The notes beneath the pieces were generated by a model, which saw only the letters and a program-made list of their open reading frames with translations, had not been told where the DNA came from and did no database searches. Positions 17,219-54,277 of a stretch of 64,000 bases of DNA are shown one piece after another. Made by a program: the position numbers and the translations under genes. This stretch comes from a virus (lineage: Duplodnaviria; Caudoviricetes): positions 1 through 64,000 of IMG/VR virus record IMGVR_UViG_3300028833_000006; one strand, given 5' to 3'. How positions within the stretch are numbered: position 1 is the first letter of the stretch; the number at the start of each line of letters is the position of its first letter.

Positions 17219-19828
17219 TTAATCTGCTAATAAGAAATCAACCATTTCTGATTTTGAAAAATCAACACCATTATCAATTAAGGCATCTGCCATTTTTCCT
17301 TTTTTATTTACTAATGTCCACACCCTCTCATCTATCGTATTTTTACAAAGAATATTATAAATAGTCACCATATTCTTCTGTCCTATTCTATGGCATCTGT
17401 CTACGCACTGCTCGTACAATGCTCTGTTCCAAGGGTGGTCAAGGAAAATTTCAACAGTCCCAGCAGTAAGTGTTAATCCAGTGCCCATAGCACCACTTGT
17501 ACCAATAATTACTTTACAATTAGCATCATTTTGAAATTTGTCTTTCATTCTCTGACGGTCTTCGTCTTTGGTATCGCCTGTTATGACAGCAATGTCATAT
17601 TTCTGTGACAGTCTTTTGCAAACTTCATCAGTTATAGAAGTCCAATTTGAGAATATAACTATTTTCTCGCCATTTTCTATGGTGTCTTCTACTATTTCTT
17701 CCATACGGTCAAGTTTCGCTGACTCTTGTATCTGACTTGAAAGAATACCTGTATATCCAGTGGCTTGGCGCATTCTAATCATTTCTGATAAAGGATTTGC
17801 TGATGACTTAATTTGGTCTATATTAGACTTAATCTCATTAGTAATCTCCTTGTATATGATTGCTTGCTTTGGTGTCATATCAACGTATTCGTCTATATAC
17901 GTCTTTTCGGGTAAATCGAGTACGTCCTCTTTTCTTCTTCTGAGCATGATTTCATCTAACTGCTCTTGAAGTTCACCAAGATTCTTATATCCAATCACTT
18001 GATATCCACCATATCCACCCATAGTACAAAAATGATTTCTGAATGAATAGAACGAATGCTTTTCATAACCTAACCATTTAAGAATACCGTATACATCTAA
18101 GGGTCGGTTAAGTAACGGTGTACCTGTCATGGCAATCATAGTCTCTGCCTTGAGTTTAAGTAATCCTTTACCTTGCTGTGACGTGGTATTTGTTAACGCT
18201 TTATGTGCTTCGTCAAGAATTATCATATTTATGACACCATTGTCACATAGTTTACATAACTCACTAACTATATCATCATTTCTAAGCGATTCTATATTAG
18301 TTATCAAGAAGTATGACTGACTAATTTCACTGTTTGGATTGTTTGTTATGTCAACCAACTGTTCATACTTTTCTGCATTACTGCCTATAACTATGTTGCC
18401 TGCTCTGTTAGTTTTCTGCCCAATAATCCACCCTTGTTCATTAGAATGTATACCAATTTCATTTGCCCAATTCCATTTAAGTCCATTAACACCACACACT
18501 ACTAAACAATGCCTATAATTATTGTTTGTTTTACGTATGCACGCTATGTCTATAGATTGTTTTGTTTTACCACAATTATGTACTACAACACTATTGCATA
18601 TAAAATTGTGAATATCTGGGTGGTCAATTTCAATATCATAAACGTCCTCATACCCATTTTCTTCAATTGATATAATTTTTTGCAACCTAGGTACAAGATA
18701 TATTTTTGTGCCCTTTCGCATTACATAATCTAAATTGGGATTGAACTGATATAAATGCTTTGATTTGGTATCAGCGTGTTTTTTACAATGTTCTTTAATA
18801 CTAAGTAATTCAAGATTTTCAAACCTATTATCGGTTTTAATACCATTAATATGGTGTACCACTTCTTTTTTAGTATCTACGATATGTCCTGTATTTTCGT
18901 ACCACACTTGATGGTGTTTATATATCCCACCCTCGTTTTTAAGATGTTCATAATTGGGCATAGATTTAGTTAGTTTACCTTTCAGTCTTACATATCCACA
19001 CCTATCTAACACTTCGACAATATCTTGATTCATATATTTTACGTTAGCGTTACATCTTAATTGTTGGTACATACACTTTTTGCAATATCCATTAAACTTT
19101 GCATATGGATAAGTGATAAGATTTTTTGTACTACCACATAATTTACATACCTCTTGACCATTAGTAAATACAGAATCACCTACTTTAAGTTGACATGCCT
19201 CAATCCAACCCTTATCTGTGTAAATTAAATGGTCTGGTGTACATACAATATCTGTATCCTCTAATGTGATTTTAATAGTCTCTTTGTTGCCTTTATATAC
19301 AACAGATTTCATTGGTAAATACCCAAATCTACCGTCTATCATACATTTAATTTGTATAGAATTATCTTTAGCAAATAATTTATATAAATTACTAAGTTTA
19401 GTATCTCTAGTAGCGACTTTACCGACTTCTTTTATCATTACTTTACAATTACCAGAGATACAACCCATCATATCACCCAGCAACCACTTGTCATGCACTA
19501 ATCCATACTTAACACCATCCAACTGATAACTATATGGCTCTGTCTTAAATGTGAAGTTACTAGGTATCTGTACATCATCTTCTGTTTTAGATATGAGCAG
19601 TGACGGGTCAGATATGTTGACATCTATGTCATAATCAGATAATCCATTAATGATATCTGCTAATGACTTAAAGGAAACTTCCCATTCTTTTGTATTAGCA
19701 TTCCAATATCTGCTAGGCAATGCTCTTACAAAATCCACTATATAATTGCTGAAAGGGAAAGAGAGATAAAGGGAACAATTTCCGTTGCACCTATCGCTCT
19801 TTCTTATGTCAACCTTAATCATTCTCAT
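17219..19828 (-). CDS. SNF2/SWI2 family helicase with intein
   Basis: GDMMG|CGKT Walker A split by the intein; DEAH, TGTP, GTGLTL, QCVDRCHRIGQ. Confidence 0.92.
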   Translation of the reverse strand: MRMIKVDIRKSDRCNGNCSLYLSFPFSNYIVDFVRALPSRYWNANTKEWEVSFKSLADIINGLSDYDIDVNISDPSLLISKTEDDVQIPSNFTFKTEPYSYQLDGVKYGLVHDKWLLGDMMGCISGNCKVMIKEVGKVATRDTKLSNLYKLFAKDNSIQIKCMIDGRFGYLPMKSVVYKGNKETIKITLEDTDIVCTPDHLIYTDKGWIEACQLKVGDSVFTNGQEVCKLCGSTKNLITYPYAKFNGYCKKCMYQQLRCNANVKYMNQDIVEVLDRCGYVRLKGKLTKSMPNYEHLKNEGGIYKHHQVWYENTGHIVDTKKEVVHHINGIKTDNRFENLELLSIKEHCKKHADTKSKHLYQFNPNLDYVMRKGTKIYLVPRLQKIISIEENGYEDVYDIEIDHPDIHNFICNSVVVHNCGKTKQSIDIACIRKTNNNYRHCLVVCGVNGLKWNWANEIGIHSNEQGWIIGQKTNRAGNIVIGSNAEKYEQLVDITNNPNSEISQSYFLITNIESLRNDDIVSELCKLCDNGVINMIILDEAHKALTNTTSQQGKGLLKLKAETMIAMTGTPLLNRPLDVYGILKWLGYEKHSFYSFRNHFCTMGGYGGYQVIGYKNLGELQEQLDEIMLRRRKEDVLDLPEKTYIDEYVDMTPKQAIIYKEITNEIKSNIDQIKSSANPLSEMIRMRQATGYTGILSSQIQESAKLDRMEEIVEDTIENGEKIVIFSNWTSITDEVCKRLSQKYDIAVITGDTKDEDRQRMKDKFQNDANCKVIIGTSGAMGTGLTLTAGTVEIFLDHPWNRALYEQCVDRCHRIGQKNMVTIYNILCKNTIDERVWTLVNKKGKMADALIDNGVDFSKSEMVDFLLAD
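18575..19462 (-). mobile_element. Intein (296 aa) with an HNH homing endonuclease
   Basis: Starts CISG, block B CTPDH, ends VVHN followed by extein C; internal HHINGIKTDNRFENL. Confidence 0.92.
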
Positions 19829-48920: not shown

Positions 48921-49369
48921 TTACCCCTTACTCTATAATGCTCGTTGTTACGTCCACCGCCAGTATTGTCTGTAAAGTTCATTATCTCAATATAGTTTAC
49001 AAGGTCTTGGTATTTCGCTTGAATGTCGCTCATACTCTTGCCCTTTGCATACTCATCTACTTCGTCTTCTATCTCGCCCTCAAATATAACATCTCCCCTA
49101 CCAAGTGTGAAATAATCACCCATTTGGTCATTAGGTAATTGTACCCATTTAAGTCTAGGAAGATATTTATCATTCTTGGGTATACGGCAAATCGTACTTG
49201 TGGCTGATACTACGGCATCTCCAAGTCTTAACTGCTCTGCATCATTCTTGAAAAAACAACTAGGAATTACTGTTCTGTACCACTGTTTAATGCCTGTGGT
49301 GTTATCTTCATATTTATTGTAGAGTGTAATGGTATCATCCCACCAACTTGCGATTCTCTGATTGTCCAT
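48917..49369 (-). CDS. Head closure / joining protein
   Basis: TITLYNK..W.RTV, GD.I..G, HY. Confidence 0.65.
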   Translation of the reverse strand: MDNQRIASWWDDTITLYNKYEDNTTGIKQWYRTVIPSCFFKNDAEQLRLGDAVVSATSTICRIPKNDKYLPRLKWVQLPNDQMGDYFTLGRGDVIFEGEIEDEVDEYAKGKSMSDIQAKYQDLVNYIEIMNFTDNTGGGRNNEHYRVRGK

Positions 49370-49379
49370 CTTATCACCC

Positions 49380-49799
49380 TCATTCGTCTTCGTAGATACC
49401 ACGGTATAAAACCTTGTGCCCTAACTCATTGACTACACTATGAAGATATTTCCTTATGGTATCGCCTTGGCTTTCCCTAAATGTTTTTAACAAATCTGAA
49501 TACGAGATGTTGTTATAACTTATGGATACACCATCATTTGACTGACTCGCTACTGACTTACTAGCAGTACCTTCTATCCCAACTGCAAGTCCAGCGTTCT
49601 CTGCATCTTGTATCTTCTCAATCTGTGAGATTAGATACATCATACACATCTTAACCTCTTCTGGCAGTCGTGTCATTTTCTTTAGTCTGTCAAACGTATA
49701 CCAGTCTACAGTCGCTCTTGCCTCAAACTCTAATAGATTAAAGGTGGTTTCGTCTTTAGTGCCACCCATAGAAGTATATTCTTCAAAAGTTAAGTACAT
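49380..49799 (-). CDS. Head-tail connector (adaptor)
   Basis: YLTFEEY...GG, SQSNDGVSISY, LYRG. Confidence 0.8.
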   Translation of the reverse strand: MYLTFEEYTSMGGTKDETTFNLLEFEARATVDWYTFDRLKKMTRLPEEVKMCMMYLISQIEKIQDAENAGLAVGIEGTASKSVASQSNDGVSISYNNISYSDLLKTFRESQGDTIRKYLHSVVNELGHKVLYRGIYEDE

Positions 49800-49828
49800 A
49801 AAACTCCACCACCTTTACAATGATTTAC

Positions 49829-50155
49829 TTATTCAGACTTCTTTGTTGCTCGTGTCTTGGGCTTAGGCTCTGCTTTGGGTTCTACTTCTGCTGTGTCTTC
49901 ACTCTCGGCTTTAACTGCCTTTGCTGACTGTGCTTTTTCTAACTCTGCCTTAAGTGCATCTACCTCTGCCTTGAGTTCTGCTATCTCCTTAGTATGCTCT
50001 CTATATGCTCTTTGTAGATTAGGAACGTCAGCGGGAATTGTCTCTCTGATAACTGCGCCCTTATCGTCTACTATCTTATAGCCTTGATTTGCATATCTTT
50101 CGATACTCTCCTCATCAATCTTAACAACTCTATTGTCTTTTTGAGCATAAATCAT
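49829..50155 (-). CDS. Capsid-associated hypothetical protein
   Basis: Follows the major capsid gene; coiled coil. Confidence 0.65.
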   Translation of the reverse strand: MIYAQKDNRVVKIDEESIERYANQGYKIVDDKGAVIRETIPADVPNLQRAYREHTKEIAELKAEVDALKAELEKAQSAKAVKAESEDTAEVEPKAEPKPKTRATKKSE

Positions 50156-50175
50156 AAGTGACTGTCCTCCTACTA

Positions 50176-51069
50176 TTAAGGTTCAATATTGAATTGAATA
50201 GCACCAGCCTTGTTATTGAGAATGAATACGTCCTCGAATGACTCCTCAAAGTAGATGTACTTACCTTCTGAACCAGCACTAGGCTCGTCTAACTTAGAGA
50301 ATGTGTAAGATACGGGTGTAATTACTGCTGTGGGCTGTACAAGGAACATATTAATCTGCTTTGCGCCAGTAGCAGGCTTCCAACCCTGTGTGAAGTCGTA
50401 AAGTGTCTTCATAAGGGGTGCAGGAACACCAATTATCTCTACTTCGTCAAGTCTGTTGACTACTCTATCAATCTTGTGGTTATTATCTGTTACGTCTATG
50501 CTACGAGAAATCTTGTCAGCTTCCTTAAGAATGTACTTAACTTCATTCGTAACATAAAGGATTCTACCATTAACGGGTACTCTTGCATTATCCATCTTAA
50601 GCATAAGTGCATCAAATACTTGAAGTGCGTTTGCTGATGTGATAACAGTCGTGTCAGCCGCAGTAGTTGCGAGTGCATTCCAATCTGAGAAAATCTTTGA
50701 AACGCAGTATGCATCCATCTCGGGGAACTTCTGCTCTTCGTTGAATACCTTTGTGATATTCTGAATGGTAGTAACCATGTTTGTCTGGTCAACATCCATA
50801 GGATGTACGAGCGTAGACCACTTTCTCTGATTTTTAAGGGTCTTCGTCTCCCAGTTGTTGTCGTAATTTCTCTGTGCCGTTGCAATCGTGTCACGGTTAG
50901 AGTCCACACGACCTGTGGTTGAGATACTAGGTATCTCGATTGTCTTTGCGTTTACCCAACGATATGTATTGTTGTTGGGAGTGTTGTAAAGTGCACCAAA
51001 GTTAAGTGTGTACGGAAAAGCCTGTGCAAGTGCTCTTGAGTACTGTGTTGCATAATTCAATGCTGCCAT
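50176..51069 (-). CDS. Major capsid protein
   Basis: Follows the scaffold; TIEIP, PEMDAY, GRILYV; strong codon bias. Confidence 0.88.
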   Translation of the reverse strand: MAALNYATQYSRALAQAFPYTLNFGALYNTPNNNTYRWVNAKTIEIPSISTTGRVDSNRDTIATAQRNYDNNWETKTLKNQRKWSTLVHPMDVDQTNMVTTIQNITKVFNEEQKFPEMDAYCVSKIFSDWNALATTAADTTVITSANALQVFDALMLKMDNARVPVNGRILYVTNEVKYILKEADKISRSIDVTDNNHKIDRVVNRLDEVEIIGVPAPLMKTLYDFTQGWKPATGAKQINMFLVQPTAVITPVSYTFSKLDEPSAGSEGKYIYFEESFEDVFILNNKAGAIQFNIEP

Positions 51070-51096
51070 TATACGTGTCCTCCTAATAATAAGTAA

Positions 51097-51837
51097 TTAG
51101 TGAGACCTTACTCCTTGAAAGTCGAATGACCAATCTTCGTCACCGCTGTCAAACCCTTGTGCTGACCCAACAAATACTTCGGGAATCTCAATATCGTCAG
51201 GCTCAACTTCCTCTACCTTAGGCTCTTCAACAATCGGATGAGACACAACTTCTGACACTTCTGTCACAATCGGCTCAGGCTCTGGTAACTCTACTTTGAA
51301 AGCGTCTGCATTCTGCTCAGAATAGATAGATACAAAATCATCTGCACCTATTAGTCTATCCCCCTCCATCTGCAACTGCTTGGCAAGCATCTCCCTAGTG
51401 AAGTCTCTCTTAGCCGCCTCTGATGAGAATTGCTTTGTGTTAGCAAATTCCTTAACAGCAAACTCATACTTCTGCTGTGCCATAAGGTCTTTGTAATTCT
51501 TAACGTCTGCTTCGTACTTACTCTGTAAGTCTGACAGTGATGTCGTTAAGTCTGCTAACTTTGTAGCGTCCTCGTCAGCCGATTTTAACTTCTCTTGCAA
51601 CTGTGCAAGGTCAGTATCCCTCGTGCTTATGGTCTCATTGAGTGTGTTTATCTGCTCGTCTCTAGTAGCAATCTCATTATCCTTCGCCTTGATAGCGGAA
51701 TCAAATTTTGATACGCTGACATACTTACCGTCTGATAAGTCTGCAAATTTCGCCCCACTCTCTTTCGCCATTGCCTCGAACTGCTCATAGGTCAACTTAC
51801 CGTCTTCGGCATTCTCGAAAAGGTCTTTAATGTTCAT
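51097..51837 (-). CDS. Capsid scaffolding protein (gp20-like)
   Basis: GKYVS..KF, long coiled coil, acidic tail. Confidence 0.8.
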   Translation of the reverse strand: MNIKDLFENAEDGKLTYEQFEAMAKESGAKFADLSDGKYVSVSKFDSAIKAKDNEIATRDEQINTLNETISTRDTDLAQLQEKLKSADEDATKLADLTTSLSDLQSKYEADVKNYKDLMAQQKYEFAVKEFANTKQFSSEAAKRDFTREMLAKQLQMEGDRLIGADDFVSIYSEQNADAFKVELPEPEPIVTEVSEVVSHPIVEEPKVEEVEPDDIEIPEVFVGSAQGFDSGDEDWSFDFQGVRSH

Positions 51838-51994
51838 TTGTCATTGTCCTCCTAACAATCTTTTATATCTGCTTTATTTGTAACTGCCCAGTCGCAGTTC
51901 TGGGCTGATTGCTACCTCATTTTACAGGTCTTTGGCTTGACCTCTATATAAATGCAATATAGACAAGGTTACATAACTAACCTATCTGTTGTAT

Positions 51995-52024
51995 AGTATA
52001 TCATACTTCTTATTATTATGTAAA
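51995..52024 (-). promoter_or_regulatory. sigmaA-like promoter for the scaffold/capsid operon
   Basis: TTTACA-18-TATACT with TG extension. Confidence 0.55.
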
Positions 52025-52060
52025 CTGTTTTTCACAATATTTTGAAATATTTTTCATACA

Positions 52061-54223
52061 CTATACATTATCTTGTGTCTTGAGTTTTGTCGCTTTGGTC
52101 TTTTTCTGCTTTAAGACTTGTGACTGCATGGACTGATATGCGCCACCGCCAACTTTTCCTACACCACCATTTGTAGAAATTTGGTTGCCTTGATTTCCTT
52201 GCCCCCCTTGTGCCCCTTGTCCATTGGTAGGGGTGGGTGCTTGCTGTCCTTGATTATTCGTGCCCCTATTATTATTGGCTTGAGTTGAATTTAAATTTTG
52301 TTGCTCACCGCTGACACTCGTGTCACTTTCCTCATCCCCCTTGTCTGAGTTGGTGGGGCTTTGGCTATTACCGTTGGAATTAGGGGAGGGTTGTCCTTGT
52401 GCCATCATTGATGAGACTGCCATGTTCTGCTCAATTGCTTGTTGAGATTCTTCTTGAACTCTTTGCAGTGCATCCATTGCCTGTCTCTTGGTCTCTCCGT
52501 AATACCACATTCTTGTTTCTAACTTGCTTGCCAATCCCTTGTCCATGAGAGTGAGCCTTGTGTTTAACTCTGTTACCATGTCTACTAGAATGCTGTCATC
52601 CCATGTGAATGAGACATCGTAAAGACCTAACTTCTTGGTGTCCACTTTGCCCCCTCGGATTACTACGTCTCCGACAATGTTGTAAATTGTGCAGTAAACG
52701 TCCATTGCGTAAATTACGTCTTTAAGGGCTGACTCTAATGCTTTTTGGATTTCTGCGTTGCTTGCGTAACTTCTTTGCTTTAAAATCTTAATCTCTGTTG
52801 CTGTTCTCGCCTCTGCGCTCACGTCTGCGATTGTGCCCCTGCTTAATGCCACTACGTCTTCAATTCGCATCAAAAGCGTGTTTAATCCATTAATCATTGA
52901 CGCATCTCTAAGGCTTGGTGCGTAAGGTTTGTAAGTGTCTGACTCACCTAAGTCAACTGGTCTGTAAAGTCTTTGCTGTAAGTGCCCCATCATTGAATGA
53001 GAATTACCCTTAAAGTCTGTTACATCTGTAAGTGCATCTCTGTCAATGTCAATTGCTAATTCGCCACCTTCGTACTCCCAAAGTAATCTAGAATACTGTA
53101 AATCCGCTTGCTTGATTAACTCCTTTGCTCTTGCGAAACCACTGATTCCTAACGGTGAGTGCGGGTCAATCGTGTTTGCTTCTGGCATCTTAAAATAACC
53201 AAACATCATTCGGTCTACGTTCTTAATTGTTGCCCTCTGCGGAATGTTCTTCCATTCTGGAACTTGCTTTAACTCAATCTCTGCCCCAAGCACTGCGTTG
53301 CCCAAAGTCATCGTGTTGTCTGTTCGGTTCAGACTCCTAAATGCTCTGTTAGTGATTGTAACTGTGTTATTCTCCAACTTGTGATACTCTAACCTAGTGT
53401 AAGTGTATTCCTTGTCAACCTTGGTCTGTAAGAATGCTACCTCTATTAGATTGCCACTGCTGTCAAATGAAAAAGGATAAAAACAATCTGCTTGTACAAA
53501 GTCAAACTCTATAGCGTACTTGTACTTCTTATTGTTCTTATCTGTTTTTATCTCTGCTGTTCCCTCTGTGTCATTAGTACTACTTTCAGAATTTGATTGC
53601 TCGTTTGTTGATTCAGCGTTGGCTACACCTTCTGATTTCTGCTCTGCCTTTGCCCCCACCTTACTATTATCAAGTCCTGCTACCTCTGCTACTGCCATTC
53701 TTGTCACATAAGGTTTTATTATAAGACTACCTTTAGCAATACCCAATTCAAGTTGTGTTCTTAATCTAGAAAGCAACTTATCTTGGTATTCCTTATTCAT
53801 AAACTCCGCTCTCTCTGTTGGAGATTTTGCTTTTTCCTTTATTACTGTTTTGGGTTTATTGCTAATAGATATGTTTCCATTTATATCTGATACTGGCGGT
53901 TGATACTCTGGATTAACAACTTCTTGAATACTCATTGGTGCGGTTATCTCTGACTGTAATTCTAATACCGCCATCCTTGCTTTTTCACTTGCTATAAATG
54001 CTGGTAACCCCAAAGACGTTACTAATGAATGGTCTTTGAAATCTGGTTCGTGCAACCAATCTGCTCTGTCTTCATACATTGCTGTCCACTCATCAATAGC
54101 ATCTATCATCTTACTACTGATTGCTGGTGAAATATGTAATGTTTGTTCAATATTTTTAACACCTATCATACCTTGCACCTTCTCTTTAACTGTTGACCAT
54201 AATGACATATTTATATACCTCAT
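52061..54223 (-). CDS. Portal protein (A118/SPP1 gp6-like)
   Basis: LP..IASE.AR, YTRLEYH, SPLGIS.F, ARTATEI, WDDSI; low-complexity insert and tail. Confidence 0.88.
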   Translation of the reverse strand: MRYINMSLWSTVKEKVQGMIGVKNIEQTLHISPAISSKMIDAIDEWTAMYEDRADWLHEPDFKDHSLVTSLGLPAFIASEKARMAVLELQSEITAPMSIQEVVNPEYQPPVSDINGNISISNKPKTVIKEKAKSPTERAEFMNKEYQDKLLSRLRTQLELGIAKGSLIIKPYVTRMAVAEVAGLDNSKVGAKAEQKSEGVANAESTNEQSNSESSTNDTEGTAEIKTDKNNKKYKYAIEFDFVQADCFYPFSFDSSGNLIEVAFLQTKVDKEYTYTRLEYHKLENNTVTITNRAFRSLNRTDNTMTLGNAVLGAEIELKQVPEWKNIPQRATIKNVDRMMFGYFKMPEANTIDPHSPLGISGFARAKELIKQADLQYSRLLWEYEGGELAIDIDRDALTDVTDFKGNSHSMMGHLQQRLYRPVDLGESDTYKPYAPSLRDASMINGLNTLLMRIEDVVALSRGTIADVSAEARTATEIKILKQRSYASNAEIQKALESALKDVIYAMDVYCTIYNIVGDVVIRGGKVDTKKLGLYDVSFTWDDSILVDMVTELNTRLTLMDKGLASKLETRMWYYGETKRQAMDALQRVQEESQQAIEQNMAVSSMMAQGQPSPNSNGNSQSPTNSDKGDEESDTSVSGEQQNLNSTQANNNRGTNNQGQQAPTPTNGQGAQGGQGNQGNQISTNGGVGKVGGGAYQSMQSQVLKQKKTKATKLKTQDNV

Positions 54224-54248: not shown

Positions 54249-54277
54249 ATTATACTAAATATTTATTTCTGTGTAAA
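54249..54277 (-). promoter_or_regulatory. sigmaA-like promoter for the portal gene
   Basis: TTTACA-17-TATAAT. Confidence 0.65.

What the first reader, a model, noticed from the sequence alone, without database searches (positions are those of the whole stretch)
52141..53381. About 1.2 kb of the portal gene is almost free of TAT/ATA trinucleotides
Seen, by eye: from about 52370 to 53365 I count three ATA and no TAT on the plus strand, where dozens are expected per kb and flanking DNA has many. Across 52141-53381 the only survivors are in AATA/TATT context; I found no TATA, TATC, TATG, GATA or CATA. Other TA-containing words (TTA, GTA, CTA) remain. The depletion includes codon-boundary sites, and the strongly codon-biased capsid and tail genes keep TAT/ATA, so codon bias alone does not explain it. 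Inference: a DNA-level constraint overlaid on the coding sequence. Options are a zone kept free of a TAT-context modifying, nicking or binding protein (for example at a packaging-initiation or first-injected region), a promoter-free zone, or the scar of context-specific A-to-G hypermutation (TGT looks enriched).
Basis: partly seen in the sequence, partly recalled or inferred. Interest (0 to 1): 0.75.

Follow-up and report, generated by a model that had tools for sequence, protein, structure and literature searches.

The report
TATV-free island inside a phage portal gene
A 1.25-kb stretch inside the portal gene of a 111-kb sheep-rumen phage has lost every copy of the four-letter DNA word TAT(A/C/G) on both strands while still encoding a normal protein; selection has held it that way in two diverged lineages, which implies that something unidentified reads this word on this segment only.

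Summary
Plus strand 52367-53367 has 0 TAT and 3 ATA, against a genome mean of about 74 TAT+ATA per kb. The precise avoided word is TATV/BATA. No copy lies between 52137 and 53383, a 1,246-bp gap; mean spacing elsewhere is 23 bp and the next-largest gap is 196 bp.

- **Not codon usage.** Synonymous shuffles that keep the segment's own codon usage expect 21.7±3.2 TAT+ATA; 3 are seen. All four codon-junction classes are zero. MCP, scaffold and 116 other genes show no such effect.
- **Not an import.** The N-terminal part and the zone rank relatives identically.
- **Not a hypermutation scar.** Ancestral sites were removed by many substitution types, and TGT is not enriched.
- **Maintained by selection.** One 80%-identical relative (L008) has the same gap although dS in the zone is about 1.0. 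74 other homologous portals carry 16-63 sites there.
- **Survivors.** All are TATT/AATA, on the same strand. This reverse-complement symmetry points to double-stranded DNA recognition.

My best guess is a site-avoidance island like the leading regions of T5/T7-type phages. Genome termini could not be mapped. This scan has noted other sharply bounded motif-free zones in other phages, with different motifs.

The parts
52061..54223 (-). Portal gene, 720 codons (other assemblies call the start 15 nt downstream, giving 715 aa)
   Evidence: phrog_533 portal E=1.1e-98. Homologues carry PF05133 and a JGI name 'A118 family predicted phage portal protein'. Pfam gives no hit for the query itself.
52141..53382 (.). 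TATV/BATA-free island in this phage, portal codons 281-694; no TATA, TATC, TATG, GATA or CATA on either strand
   Evidence: 1,246-bp gap between sites at 52137 and 53383; genome mean spacing 23 bp, next-largest gap 196 bp. 0 observed against 15.4±3.2 expected from synonymous shuffles, both strands counted. About 63-67 expected at genome or local rates.
52367..53367 (.). Core 1 kb with 0 TAT and 3 ATA on the plus strand
53383..53476 (.). Upstream extension of the island (codons 250-280). It is site-free in relative L008. This phage keeps one ancestral TATC (Tyr280, 53383-53386), which L008 lost through Y280H.
   Evidence: The L008 gap is 1,324 bp.
52135..52140 (.). Shared downstream boundary: coding-strand CATATC (Ala/Thr695-Tyr696), holding three overlapping forbidden words, conserved in both lineages
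52502..53197 (-). The three surviving Tyr TAT codons of the core (plus-strand ATA at 52502, 53093, 53195), each followed by T, so TATT
54249..54277 (-). Sigma-A-type promoter-like site upstream of the portal gene (TTTACA-17-TATAAT, 11 of 12)
   Evidence: a consensus scan only.
51995..52056 (-). Promoter-like site for the scaffold/capsid operon (TTTACA-18-TATACT with TG), preceded by the palindrome TGAAAAATATTTCA, which recurs at about 13 other promoters of the genome
   Evidence: Phage-identical metatranscriptome contigs cover 49308-51973 and stop there; this is a weak hint, from one study.
51845..51945 (-). GP20-a-like RNA motif in the scaffold gene leader
   Evidence: RF02991, 42.9 bits, E=1.9e-5, below the gathering score of 47.2.
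52312..52325 (.). One of 54 genomic copies of TGACA-N4-TGTCA. It is the last copy before a 28-kb stretch (52326-80772) that has none, and it lies in the low-complexity tail inside the island.

Best explanation
The island is a discrete DNA segment of about 1.25-1.33 kb (portal codons 250/281-694). It is under continuing purifying selection against the 4-bp word TATV in either orientation, read as double-stranded DNA.

Shown:
- The word was removed in situ, in the common ancestor of this phage and L008. Removal used about 30 independent, mostly synonymous substitutions of many types.
- Both descendants have kept it out while their synonymous sites turned over almost completely.

Inferred:
- The segment is a site-avoidance island. 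Some DNA-acting factor that recognises TATV (a nuclease, nickase or other cleaving or marking activity) can do harm only on this segment, so each site there costs fitness. The roughly 4,800 sites elsewhere are harmless.
- The closest known logic is the leading, first-injected DNA of T5- and T7-type phages, which is the only part exposed to host nucleases and is therefore kept free of their sites.
- For that logic to apply here, the segment would have to be uniquely exposed. It could be a terminal or first-entering piece, or a piece that becomes single-stranded or unprotected at some step.

The identity of the TATV reader and the reason for the locality are not shown.
For: Selection acts at the DNA level, not on codons:
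- Shuffles that keep protein and codon usage expect 21.7±3.2 TAT+ATA; 3 are observed.
- All four junction classes are zero.
- ATA and TAT are the two most depleted 3-mers.

Double-strand symmetry:
- On one and the same strand TATT (3) and its complement AATA (5) survive. TATA, TATC, TATG, CATA and GATA are all 0. L008 shows the same pattern, 4 and 7.

A discrete unit:
- Density changes abruptly from 0 per 1.25 kb to about 1 per 25 bp at both ends.
- The downstream boundary is identical in both lineages.

Ongoing selection:
- win-L008 dS in the zone is about 1.0 (pS 0.55), yet both have 0 sites.
- Lineage-specific sites TATV:TATT are 0:11 in the zone against 17:14 in the N-terminal part, Fisher p=0.0012.
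- 74 other distinct homologues have 16-63 sites (median 32) in the same codons.

Uniqueness:
- An unbiased scan of about 500 degenerate 4-mer classes in five family genomes scores this gap 45, against 16 or less for anything else.

Nuclease pressure shapes this genome:
- GATC 2 against 339 expected, CGCG 1 against 103, CCGG 6, GGCC 17, AGCT 28, GAATTC 0 against 34.

Precedent for local vulnerability:
- In T5, only FST DNA is cut by EcoRI or CRISPR (bioRxiv 10.1101/866236).
- In Murciavirus, a type I RM motif matters only in the leading region (PMC12455610).
Against: - No nuclease, nickase or PAM with TATV specificity is known to me from nature.
- The island lies inside a late structural gene, about 25 kb from the terminase gene. 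It is not in an early or anti-defence region as in T5 or T7.
- A genome end inside the portal gene would be unusual.
- The record's 127-bp 'terminal repeat' equals a common assembly k-mer size, which I take for an assembly overlap, so it gives no information on real ends.
- Persistence over dS about 1 in two lineages needs a very stable selective agent. That fits a phage-intrinsic factor at least as well as a host nuclease.
Confidence: 0.35

Rival explanations
1. Intrinsic cis-acting segment. The phage's own TATV-reading machinery acts genome-wide: a DNA modification enzyme, a nickase, the DnaG-type primase, or an abundant DNA-binding protein. This segment has a DNA-level role, for example in packaging, replication or recombination, that is incompatible with that mark or binding. 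It is therefore kept as a modification-free or protein-free zone.
For: - Stability of the constraint over dS about 1 in two lineages fits a phage-encoded factor.
- The phage encodes two N6_N4 methyltransferases, a free HNH_3 endonuclease, a DnaG-like primase, a clamp and clamp loader, and a UvsX-like recombinase.
- TATV is not avoided elsewhere: per-gene z averages +0.46.
- Earlier unchecked notes of this scan tie other sharply bounded motif-free zones to phages' own DNA modification.
Against: - No positive element was found in the zone: no iterons, inverted repeats or Rfam hit.
- Synonymous sites evolve freely, so no embedded sequence-specific element is conserved.
- GC skew shows no origin-like switch.
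- No T- or A-hypermodification genes were identified in the proteins scanned.
Confidence: 0.25
2. CRISPR or other RNA-guided pressure. TATV is the PAM (or TAM) of a host or rival-phage effector whose guides concentrate on the conserved portal core, so only PAMs there were purged.
For: - Guides are the one known way to couple a short motif to a particular region.
- A 'three bases plus V' form resembles the Cas12a PAM TTTV. TATV is the PAM of engineered Cas12a RVR variants (a resemblance only).
- The island coincides with the widely conserved portal core plus tail.
Against: - No natural TATV PAM is known to me.
- PAM loss from priming should fade gradually, not stop within 40 bp.
- Spacer repertoires turn over quickly, whereas the purge is complete and stable over dS about 1.
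Confidence: 0.08
3. Avoidance of spurious sigma-A promoters. The -10 hexamers of this phage's own promoters begin with TATA, and the zone is kept free of internal or antisense initiation.
For: - The phage's promoters are TTGACA-N17-TATAAT/TATACT.
- The effect is strand-symmetric, as promoter avoidance would be.
Against: - -10-like hexamers without TAT are not depleted: TA[ACG]..T 30 against 30.8, and TA[ACG]A.T 14 against 9.7.
- By my estimate most TATV occurrences elsewhere lack the T at hexamer position 6, yet all TATV are gone here.
- No other gene, including the most expressed ones, shows the effect.
Confidence: 0.05
4. RNA-level avoidance. The portal mRNA is kept free of UAUV and BAUA because an endoribonuclease, for example a toxin of an abortive-infection system, cuts there.
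For: - The zone lies within one transcription unit.
- Short 3-5-nt motifs are typical of mRNA interferases (general knowledge).
Against: - It needs two unrelated RNA motifs whose exceptions (UAUU, AAUA) happen to be reverse complements of each other.
- The boundaries do not match the transcript or the ORF: the first 250-280 codons and the last 26 codons are normal.
Confidence: 0.04
5. Mosaic import of the segment from a phage that is poor in TAT/ATA genome-wide, or plain codon bias of a highly expressed gene.
For: - Codon usage shifts inside the gene at about codon 281: Ile ATT/ATC/ATA goes from 6/1/13 to 16/6/0, and GC3 from 0.30 to 0.44.
Against: - The ranking and degree of relatedness are the same for the N-terminal part and the zone: L008 > L009 > L001/L013/L015.
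- L008 has normal TATV density outside the gap.
- Divergence inside and outside the zone is similar.
- Shuffles that keep the codon usage still expect 22.
- No donor was found among about 85 family loci, five whole genomes, or 185k bacterial genomes.
Confidence: 0.03
6. Scar of context-specific hypermutation, for example A-to-G in TAT.
Against: - 13 ancestral sites were removed by T>C (6), A>T (3), A>C (3), T>G, T>A, G>A and G>T, in some cases differently in the two lineages.
- TGT is at expectation.
- The protein is conserved: 80% identity to L009 in the zone.
Confidence: 0.01

Closest known systems
Restriction-site-free leading (first-injected) DNA of T5-like and T7-like phages (T5 FST region and EcoRI/CRISPR, bioRxiv 10.1101/866236; Murciavirus and type I RM, PMC12455610)
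   Same: A motif that is common and harmless in most of the genome matters only in one defined segment, which is therefore kept free of it. Locality comes from the position of the DNA, not from the gene it encodes.
   Different: - Here the segment is 1.25 kb inside a late, essential structural gene and far from the terminase gene.
- It carries no early or anti-defence genes.
- The word is a degenerate asymmetric 4-mer occurring every 23 bp elsewhere, not a classical RM site.
- Whether the segment is terminal or first-injected is unknown.
Genome-wide restriction-site (palindrome) avoidance in phages
   Same: Selection removes short DNA words through synonymous changes. This same genome shows it strongly for GATC, CGCG, CCGG, GGCC, AGCT and GAATTC.
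   Different: That avoidance is genome-wide and concerns palindromes. TATV is not avoided anywhere else in the genome.
PAM depletion in phages of CRISPR-bearing hosts (PMC4246573; PMC12174588)
   Same: Depletion of a 2-4-nt word on both strands, driven by a DNA-targeting system.
   Different: I did not read these papers beyond their titles and abstract openings. As I understand the phenomenon, such depletion is modest and genome-wide, whereas here it is total and confined to 1.25 kb. No TATV PAM is known in nature.
Other sharply bounded motif-free zones noted in this scan (GG/CC-free 3.1-kb zone; CTC-free 9.5-kb early region)
   Same: Sharp-edged islands in uncultured phage genomes that lack one short word, at some cost to coding freedom.
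   Different: The motifs, sizes and locations differ: next to the packaging site or in early regions, against a late portal gene here. These are unchecked AI notes, used only as leads.

Membership tests
Leading-region restriction-site avoidance (T5 FST / T7-type) | A motif is absent from one segment but common elsewhere in the same genome | tested here: met
   0 sites in 1,246 bp against one per 23 bp genome-wide.
Leading-region restriction-site avoidance (T5 FST / T7-type) | The segment is at a physical genome end or is injected first | not testable with these tools
   Only Logan contigs were available, so no read starts or depth steps could be seen. The 127-bp end repeat equals a common assembly k-mer size and is probably an assembly overlap.
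Leading-region restriction-site avoidance (T5 FST / T7-type) | The segment carries early or anti-defence genes expressed before the rest enters | tested here: not met
   The segment is the 3' two-thirds of the portal gene, with no other ORF of 60 aa or more in any frame.
Leading-region restriction-site avoidance (T5 FST / T7-type) | The motif is the recognition site of a known nuclease of the host | not testable with these tools
   The host is unknown, and no TATV-specific enzyme is known to me.
Codon-usage or translational bias | The depletion disappears when synonymous codons are permuted within the segment | tested here: not met
   21.7±3.2 expected, 3 observed, 0 of 5000 shuffles. Junction classes are all zero.
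Mosaic import from a compositionally different donor | The segment has different nearest relatives or divergence from its flanks | tested here: not met
   Same ranking of relatives and similar identities for the N-terminal part and the zone. dS is 0.66 against 1.0.
Context-specific hypermutation scar | One dominant substitution class converts the motif, with an excess of the product word | tested here: not met
   Seven substitution classes were seen. TGT is 54 against 54.7 expected.
Spurious sigma-70/sigma-A promoter avoidance | -10-like hexamers in general (TANNNT) are depleted | tested here: not met
   TA[ACG]..T is 30 against 30.8, and TATT.T is 4 against 4.3.
CRISPR PAM depletion | Host spacers match the region and are flanked by the depleted motif | tested here: inconclusive
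   565 Lachnospiraceae and Oscillospiraceae genomes were searched. The few 24-43-nt matches checked are not flanked by repeats. This is a small sample and the host is unknown.
SPP1 Gp6-like / A118-type portal protein (identity of the gene) | Significant match to curated portal profiles, and position upstream of the scaffold and major capsid genes | tested here: met
   phrog_533 E=1.1e-98. The neighbours match Phage_scaffold (PF06810) and phrog_422 major head protein. Homologues carry PF05133, but Pfam itself gives no hit for this protein.

The most novel reading that the evidence does not exclude
The island is the visible 'negative imprint' of a physical or functional DNA unit that nobody has described. 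One possibility is a roughly 1.3-kb terminal repeat, first-entering piece or transiently single-stranded segment lying inside the portal gene. Another is a cis-acting packaging or replication segment. In either case TATV would be the recognition word of an undiscovered frequent-cutting, nicking, modifying or PAM-reading system, belonging to rumen Firmicutes or to the phage itself. If so, motif-free islands could be used to find both hidden cis-elements of uncultured phages and the specificities of unknown DNA-targeting systems from sequence alone.
Probability: 0.3. Interest if true: 0.85.

Novelty: new variant of a known kind. Interest (0 to 1): 0.72.

Why it matters
- Local, total and long-maintained avoidance of a 4-bp word inside an essential late gene is not explained by any described phage feature.
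- It shows that a sequence-specific DNA process acts on one defined kilobase of this genome.
- If the agent is a nuclease, nickase or PAM reader, its specificity (TATV) has been read directly from a metagenomic sequence.
- If the segment is terminal or cis-acting, its borders have been mapped to within a few tens of bases without any experiment.
- The test used here can be applied to any phage genome. It needs a gap statistic, synonymous shuffles, and a diverged relative as a control for ongoing selection.

Tried and rejected
- **Megablast against GenBank phages:** no match. tblastn finds only portals of 41% identity or less.
- **Second copy of the zone in the genome (a DGR-like template):** none.
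- **Iterons or inverted repeats in or at the edges of the zone:** none convincing.
- **Rfam hits in the zone:** none credible. Only a GP20-a-like motif downstream of it.
- **GC or AT skew switch at the zone:** none.
- **The 14-bp palindrome TGACA-N4-TGTCA as a boundary marker:** one copy lies inside the zone and near-matches lie at 53452 and 53693. They do not bracket it.
- **Other motif-free patterns in the same portal region of about 75 homologues:**
  - The extremes checked (GATC, AGCT and GATG/CATC in L017, L031, L001, L036 and L049) are absent or rare across their whole 7-8-kb loci.
  - An AATT gap in L046 is not significant.
- **Host-resident copy of the portal segment:** the closest hit in 185,579 species genomes is 52% identical.
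- **CRISPR spacers:**
  - The 6-kb region was searched against 401 Lachnospiraceae and 164 Oscillospiraceae genomes.
  - Short matches at 50.6, 51.2, 52.1, 52.8 and 53.7 kb are not flanked by repeats where checked.
  - This is no evidence either way.
- **Termini and expression:**
  - Runs holding the phage are kept only as contigs.
  - No starts, ends or local depth can be read.
  - The absence of RNA contigs over the portal gene is not interpretable.
- **One 9.1-kb unitig containing the island has depth 15.8, against 13.7 for its neighbour.** A doubled 1.3 kb would give about that figure, but two unitigs are no evidence.
Full report
**Setting.** The window is the first 64 kb of a 111,212-bp IMG/VR virus record. 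The record's 127-bp end repeat equals a common assembly k-mer size, so I take it for an assembly overlap rather than a real terminal repeat. The runs that hold the sequence are sheep-gut metagenomes. Of 119 ORFs of 100 aa or more, 113 lie on the minus strand.

The gene at 52061-54223(-) is the portal:
- It matches phrog_533 with E=1.1e-98.
- The scaffold gene (PF06810) and the major head protein gene (phrog_422) follow directly.
- Homologues carry PF05133.

The phage has its own replication genes: a DNA polymerase, a DnaG-like primase, a DnaB-like helicase, a clamp and clamp loader, and a UvsX-like recombinase. It also has two N6_N4 methyltransferases and a free HNH_3 endonuclease. The large terminase gene (PF04466) lies about 25 kb upstream of the portal and is interrupted.

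- Plus strand 52367-53367 contains no TAT and three ATA. The window averages 37 TAT and 34 ATA per kb.
- In the whole genome the lowest 1-kb window has 4 TAT+ATA, against a mean of 74 (sd 16). The next-lowest region, in the capsid gene, has 28.
From 52141 to 53380 every surviving TAT/ATA is TATT or AATA, and TATA, TATC, TATG, GATA and CATA are absent.
- Defined as TATV/BATA, the gap is 1,246 bp (52137 to 53383). Sites elsewhere are 23 bp apart on average, and the second-largest gap is 196 bp.
- About 500 degenerate 4-mer classes were scanned without prior choice in this genome and four whole genomes of the same portal family. This gap scores 45 (gap over mean spacing, minus ln n). Nothing else exceeds 16.

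**It is not codon usage.**
- Codon usage does change inside the gene near codon 281. Ile ATT/ATC/ATA goes from 6/1/13 to 16/6/0, and GC3 from 0.30 to 0.44.
- Permuting synonymous codons within the segment keeps the protein and that codon usage, yet still gives 21.7±3.2 TAT+ATA. Three are observed, and none of 5000 shuffles reaches this.
- ATA (0 against 9.9) and TAT (3 against 11.7) are the two most depleted of all 64 trinucleotides.
- All four ways of forming the words across a codon junction are at zero (AT|A, A|TA, T|AT, TA|T), with 3.8-5.7 expected each. Other TA- or AT-containing junction words are at expectation. The compensating T|TA and AT|T are enriched.
- The first 281 codons of the same gene show no effect (51 against 49.8). 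Neither does any other gene. The capsid and scaffold genes are low in TAT/ATA exactly as their codon usage predicts, z about 0.

**It is read as double-stranded DNA.** On the coding strand both TATT (3) and its reverse complement AATA (5) survive. TATA, TATC and TATG and their complements CATA and GATA are all absent. L008 shows the same pattern, 4 and 7. An RNA-level reader would have no reason for exceptions that are reverse complements of one another. One asymmetric 4-bp word, TATV, read in either orientation explains everything.

**It arose in place and is actively maintained.** Searches of 5.8 billion proteins and of viral, metagenome and genome contigs gave three kinds of relative:
- identical portals in other assemblies (L006, L007);
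- one relative at 80% protein identity (L008, a 3.8-kb ENA contig);
- then nothing closer than about 70%.

| Comparison | Result |
|---|---|
| L008 TATV/BATA gap | 1,324 bp |
| L008 TAT+ATA, observed against shuffled | 5 against 20.4 |
| Downstream boundary | same in both lineages: CATATC at codons 695-696 |
| Upstream end of the L008 gap | site-free back to the shared TATC at codon 249; Tyr280, still TAT-C in this phage and in L009, has become His |
| 74 other distinct homologues, codons 281-600 | 16-63 sites, median 32 |
| Shuffle z of the other homologues | between -3 and +4 |

- The N-terminal part and the zone rank relatives identically (L008 > L009 > L001/L013/L015) with similar identities. 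The segment is therefore not an import.
- Thirteen sites that are ancestral by outgroup comparison were removed by T>C, A>T, A>C, T>A, T>G, G>A and G>T. In some cases the two lineages differ in how. That is selection, not one mutational process.
- TGT is not enriched.
- Between this phage and L008 the synonymous divergence in the zone is about 1.0 (pS 0.55), against 0.66 in the N-terminal part. Synonymous sites have largely turned over, yet neither lineage has a single TATV.
- The tolerated words serve as an internal control. Lineage-specific TATT/AATA sites number 11 in the zone and lineage-specific TATV/BATA sites number 0. In the N-terminal part the counts are 14 and 17 (Fisher p=0.0012).
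- High dS also means the zone hides no conserved sequence element or overlapping gene.

**What it is not, further.**
- σA-type -10 avoidance fails. TA[ACG]..T hexamers are at expectation (30 against 30.8), and TA[ACG]A.T is if anything enriched.
- There is no second copy of the zone, no repeats or iterons, no Rfam element in it, and no skew switch.
- No host-resident copy was found.
- No CRISPR spacers were found in a small sample of 565 genomes. That sample is too small to be informative.

**Mechanism.** The following is shown: persistent purifying selection against a 4-bp double-stranded DNA word, confined to a discrete segment whose borders are sharp and partly conserved. The rest of the genome is indifferent to the word.

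Whatever reads TATV must therefore be harmful only on this segment. Two broad classes fit.

- **(a) Exposure.** The segment alone is accessible to a TATV-specific cleaving, nicking or marking activity. This is the logic established for leading DNA.
  - In T5, only FST DNA is sensitive to EcoRI and to CRISPR (bioRxiv 10.1101/866236).
  - In Murciavirus, a type I RM motif matters only in the first-injected region (PMC12455610).
  - Nuclease avoidance has clearly shaped this genome: GATC 2 against 339 expected, CGCG 1 against 103, GAATTC 0 against 34.
  - Against it, the island lies in a late gene far from the terminase gene, and no TATV enzyme is known.
- **(b) Intrinsic incompatibility.** The phage's own TATV-reading activity (a modification, nicking, priming, or an abundant binder) must be kept off a segment that has a DNA-level role.
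  - The stability of the constraint over dS about 1 in both lineages favours a stable agent, and so gives (b) real weight.
  - No positive cis-element was found.

A guide-dependent (PAM) explanation is the only known way to tie a short motif to an arbitrary region. It fits poorly with the sharp borders and the long persistence.

I put (a) at 0.35, (b) at 0.25, PAM at 0.08, and all ordinary explanations together below 0.15. The remainder is something not thought of.

**What could not be done.** Termini, depth steps, nicks and modifications could not be examined because the runs are held as contigs only. That mapping is the single most decisive missing step.

**Relation to earlier notes of this scan.**
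- The same stretch was noted twice by first readers.
- Other agents noted sharply bounded motif-free zones in other uncultured phages: GG/CC-free next to a packaging site, and CTC-free in an early region. I used these as leads for the rival explanations and did not test them.
- A note on a 14-bp palindrome in this genome was checked here. There are 54 exact copies and none in 52326-80772. It does not delimit the island.

**Verdict.** This is a real, statistically overwhelming, lineage-specific and actively maintained TATV-free island of 1.25-1.33 kb inside the portal gene. The hypermutation and promoter options are rejected, and the causal agent remains unidentified.

Noticed in passing
whole genome (window and beyond): Very strong genome-wide avoidance of palindromic restriction words: GATC 2 (339 expected from base composition), CGCG 1 (103), CCGG 6, GGCC 17, AGCT 28 (339), TCGA 86 (339). 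GAATTC, AGATCT, GGATCC, GCATGC and many other 6-mers are at 0. Relatives avoid other sets: L017 has GATC 0 and GATG/CATC rare, and L049 has AGCT 1 in 7.8 kb.
   Followed up: partly
G000:C1:78837-79890 (beyond the window): The large terminase (PF04466) matches in two pieces, profile positions 1-108 at 79543-79890 and 97-200 at 78837-79145. About 400 nt lie between them, and one TAG is counted inside the upstream piece. This could be an intron, an inserted element or a split gene. The gene lies about 25 kb upstream of the portal. Relatives with 62-75-kb genomes have the terminase 0-4 kb from the portal, and the 105-kb relative G001 has it 34 kb away.
   Followed up: partly
window 10203, 10882, 52056, 57000, 60199, 61394, 62969 and 65529-99430 beyond the window: A 16-bp palindrome TTGAAAAATTTTTCAA (variants with ATAT in the centre) sits directly upstream of near-consensus TTGACA-N17-TATAAT/TATACT promoters with a conserved spacer, at about 14 places. 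It is probably the operator or activator site of a phage regulator. One copy precedes the scaffold/capsid operon.
   Followed up: partly
window 51845-51945 (-): A GP20-a RNA motif (RF02991) matches in the leader of the scaffold (Phage_scaffold/GP20) gene. The score is 42.9 bits, E=1.9e-5, just under the gathering score of 47.2.
   Followed up: no
window 1650-52312 and 80773-110376 of the genome: There are 54 exact copies of TGACA-N4-TGTCA, mostly inside genes, and none between 52326 and 80772 (the block of small genes between terminase and portal). The motif is absent from four family genomes (G001-G004) and has only two copies in a fifth, G005.
   Followed up: partly
window 17219-19828 (-): An 869-aa helicase (phrog_62) carries an HNH endonuclease domain at residues 268-361, ahead of the helicase core. 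This could be an inserted homing-type nuclease or an intein-like element.
   Followed up: no
window 49308-51973: Contigs identical to the phage in two sheep-gut metatranscriptome runs of one sample cover the capsid-scaffold operon. They end at 51972/51973, about 20 nt downstream of the predicted -10 (TATACT, 52000-51995). That fits a transcript start there, but contigs cannot prove it.
   Followed up: no
G004:C1:15623-16669 and G003:C1:43241-43877: Relatives have smaller word gaps elsewhere. One is an AGG/CCT-free 1.05 kb in G004 (score 16). The other is a TTTD-free 0.64 kb in G003 (score 15.8). Neither was corrected for protein composition and neither is in the portal gene.
   Followed up: no
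window 52142-52426 and 53530-53700 (portal codons 601-694 and about 175-235): The portal of this phage and of L008 has two lineage-specific low-complexity insertions: an S/T/N/E-rich one in the N-terminal part, and a roughly 95-residue Q/N/G-rich tail before a conserved basic C-terminal peptide. The tail lies inside the TATV-free island.
   Followed up: no
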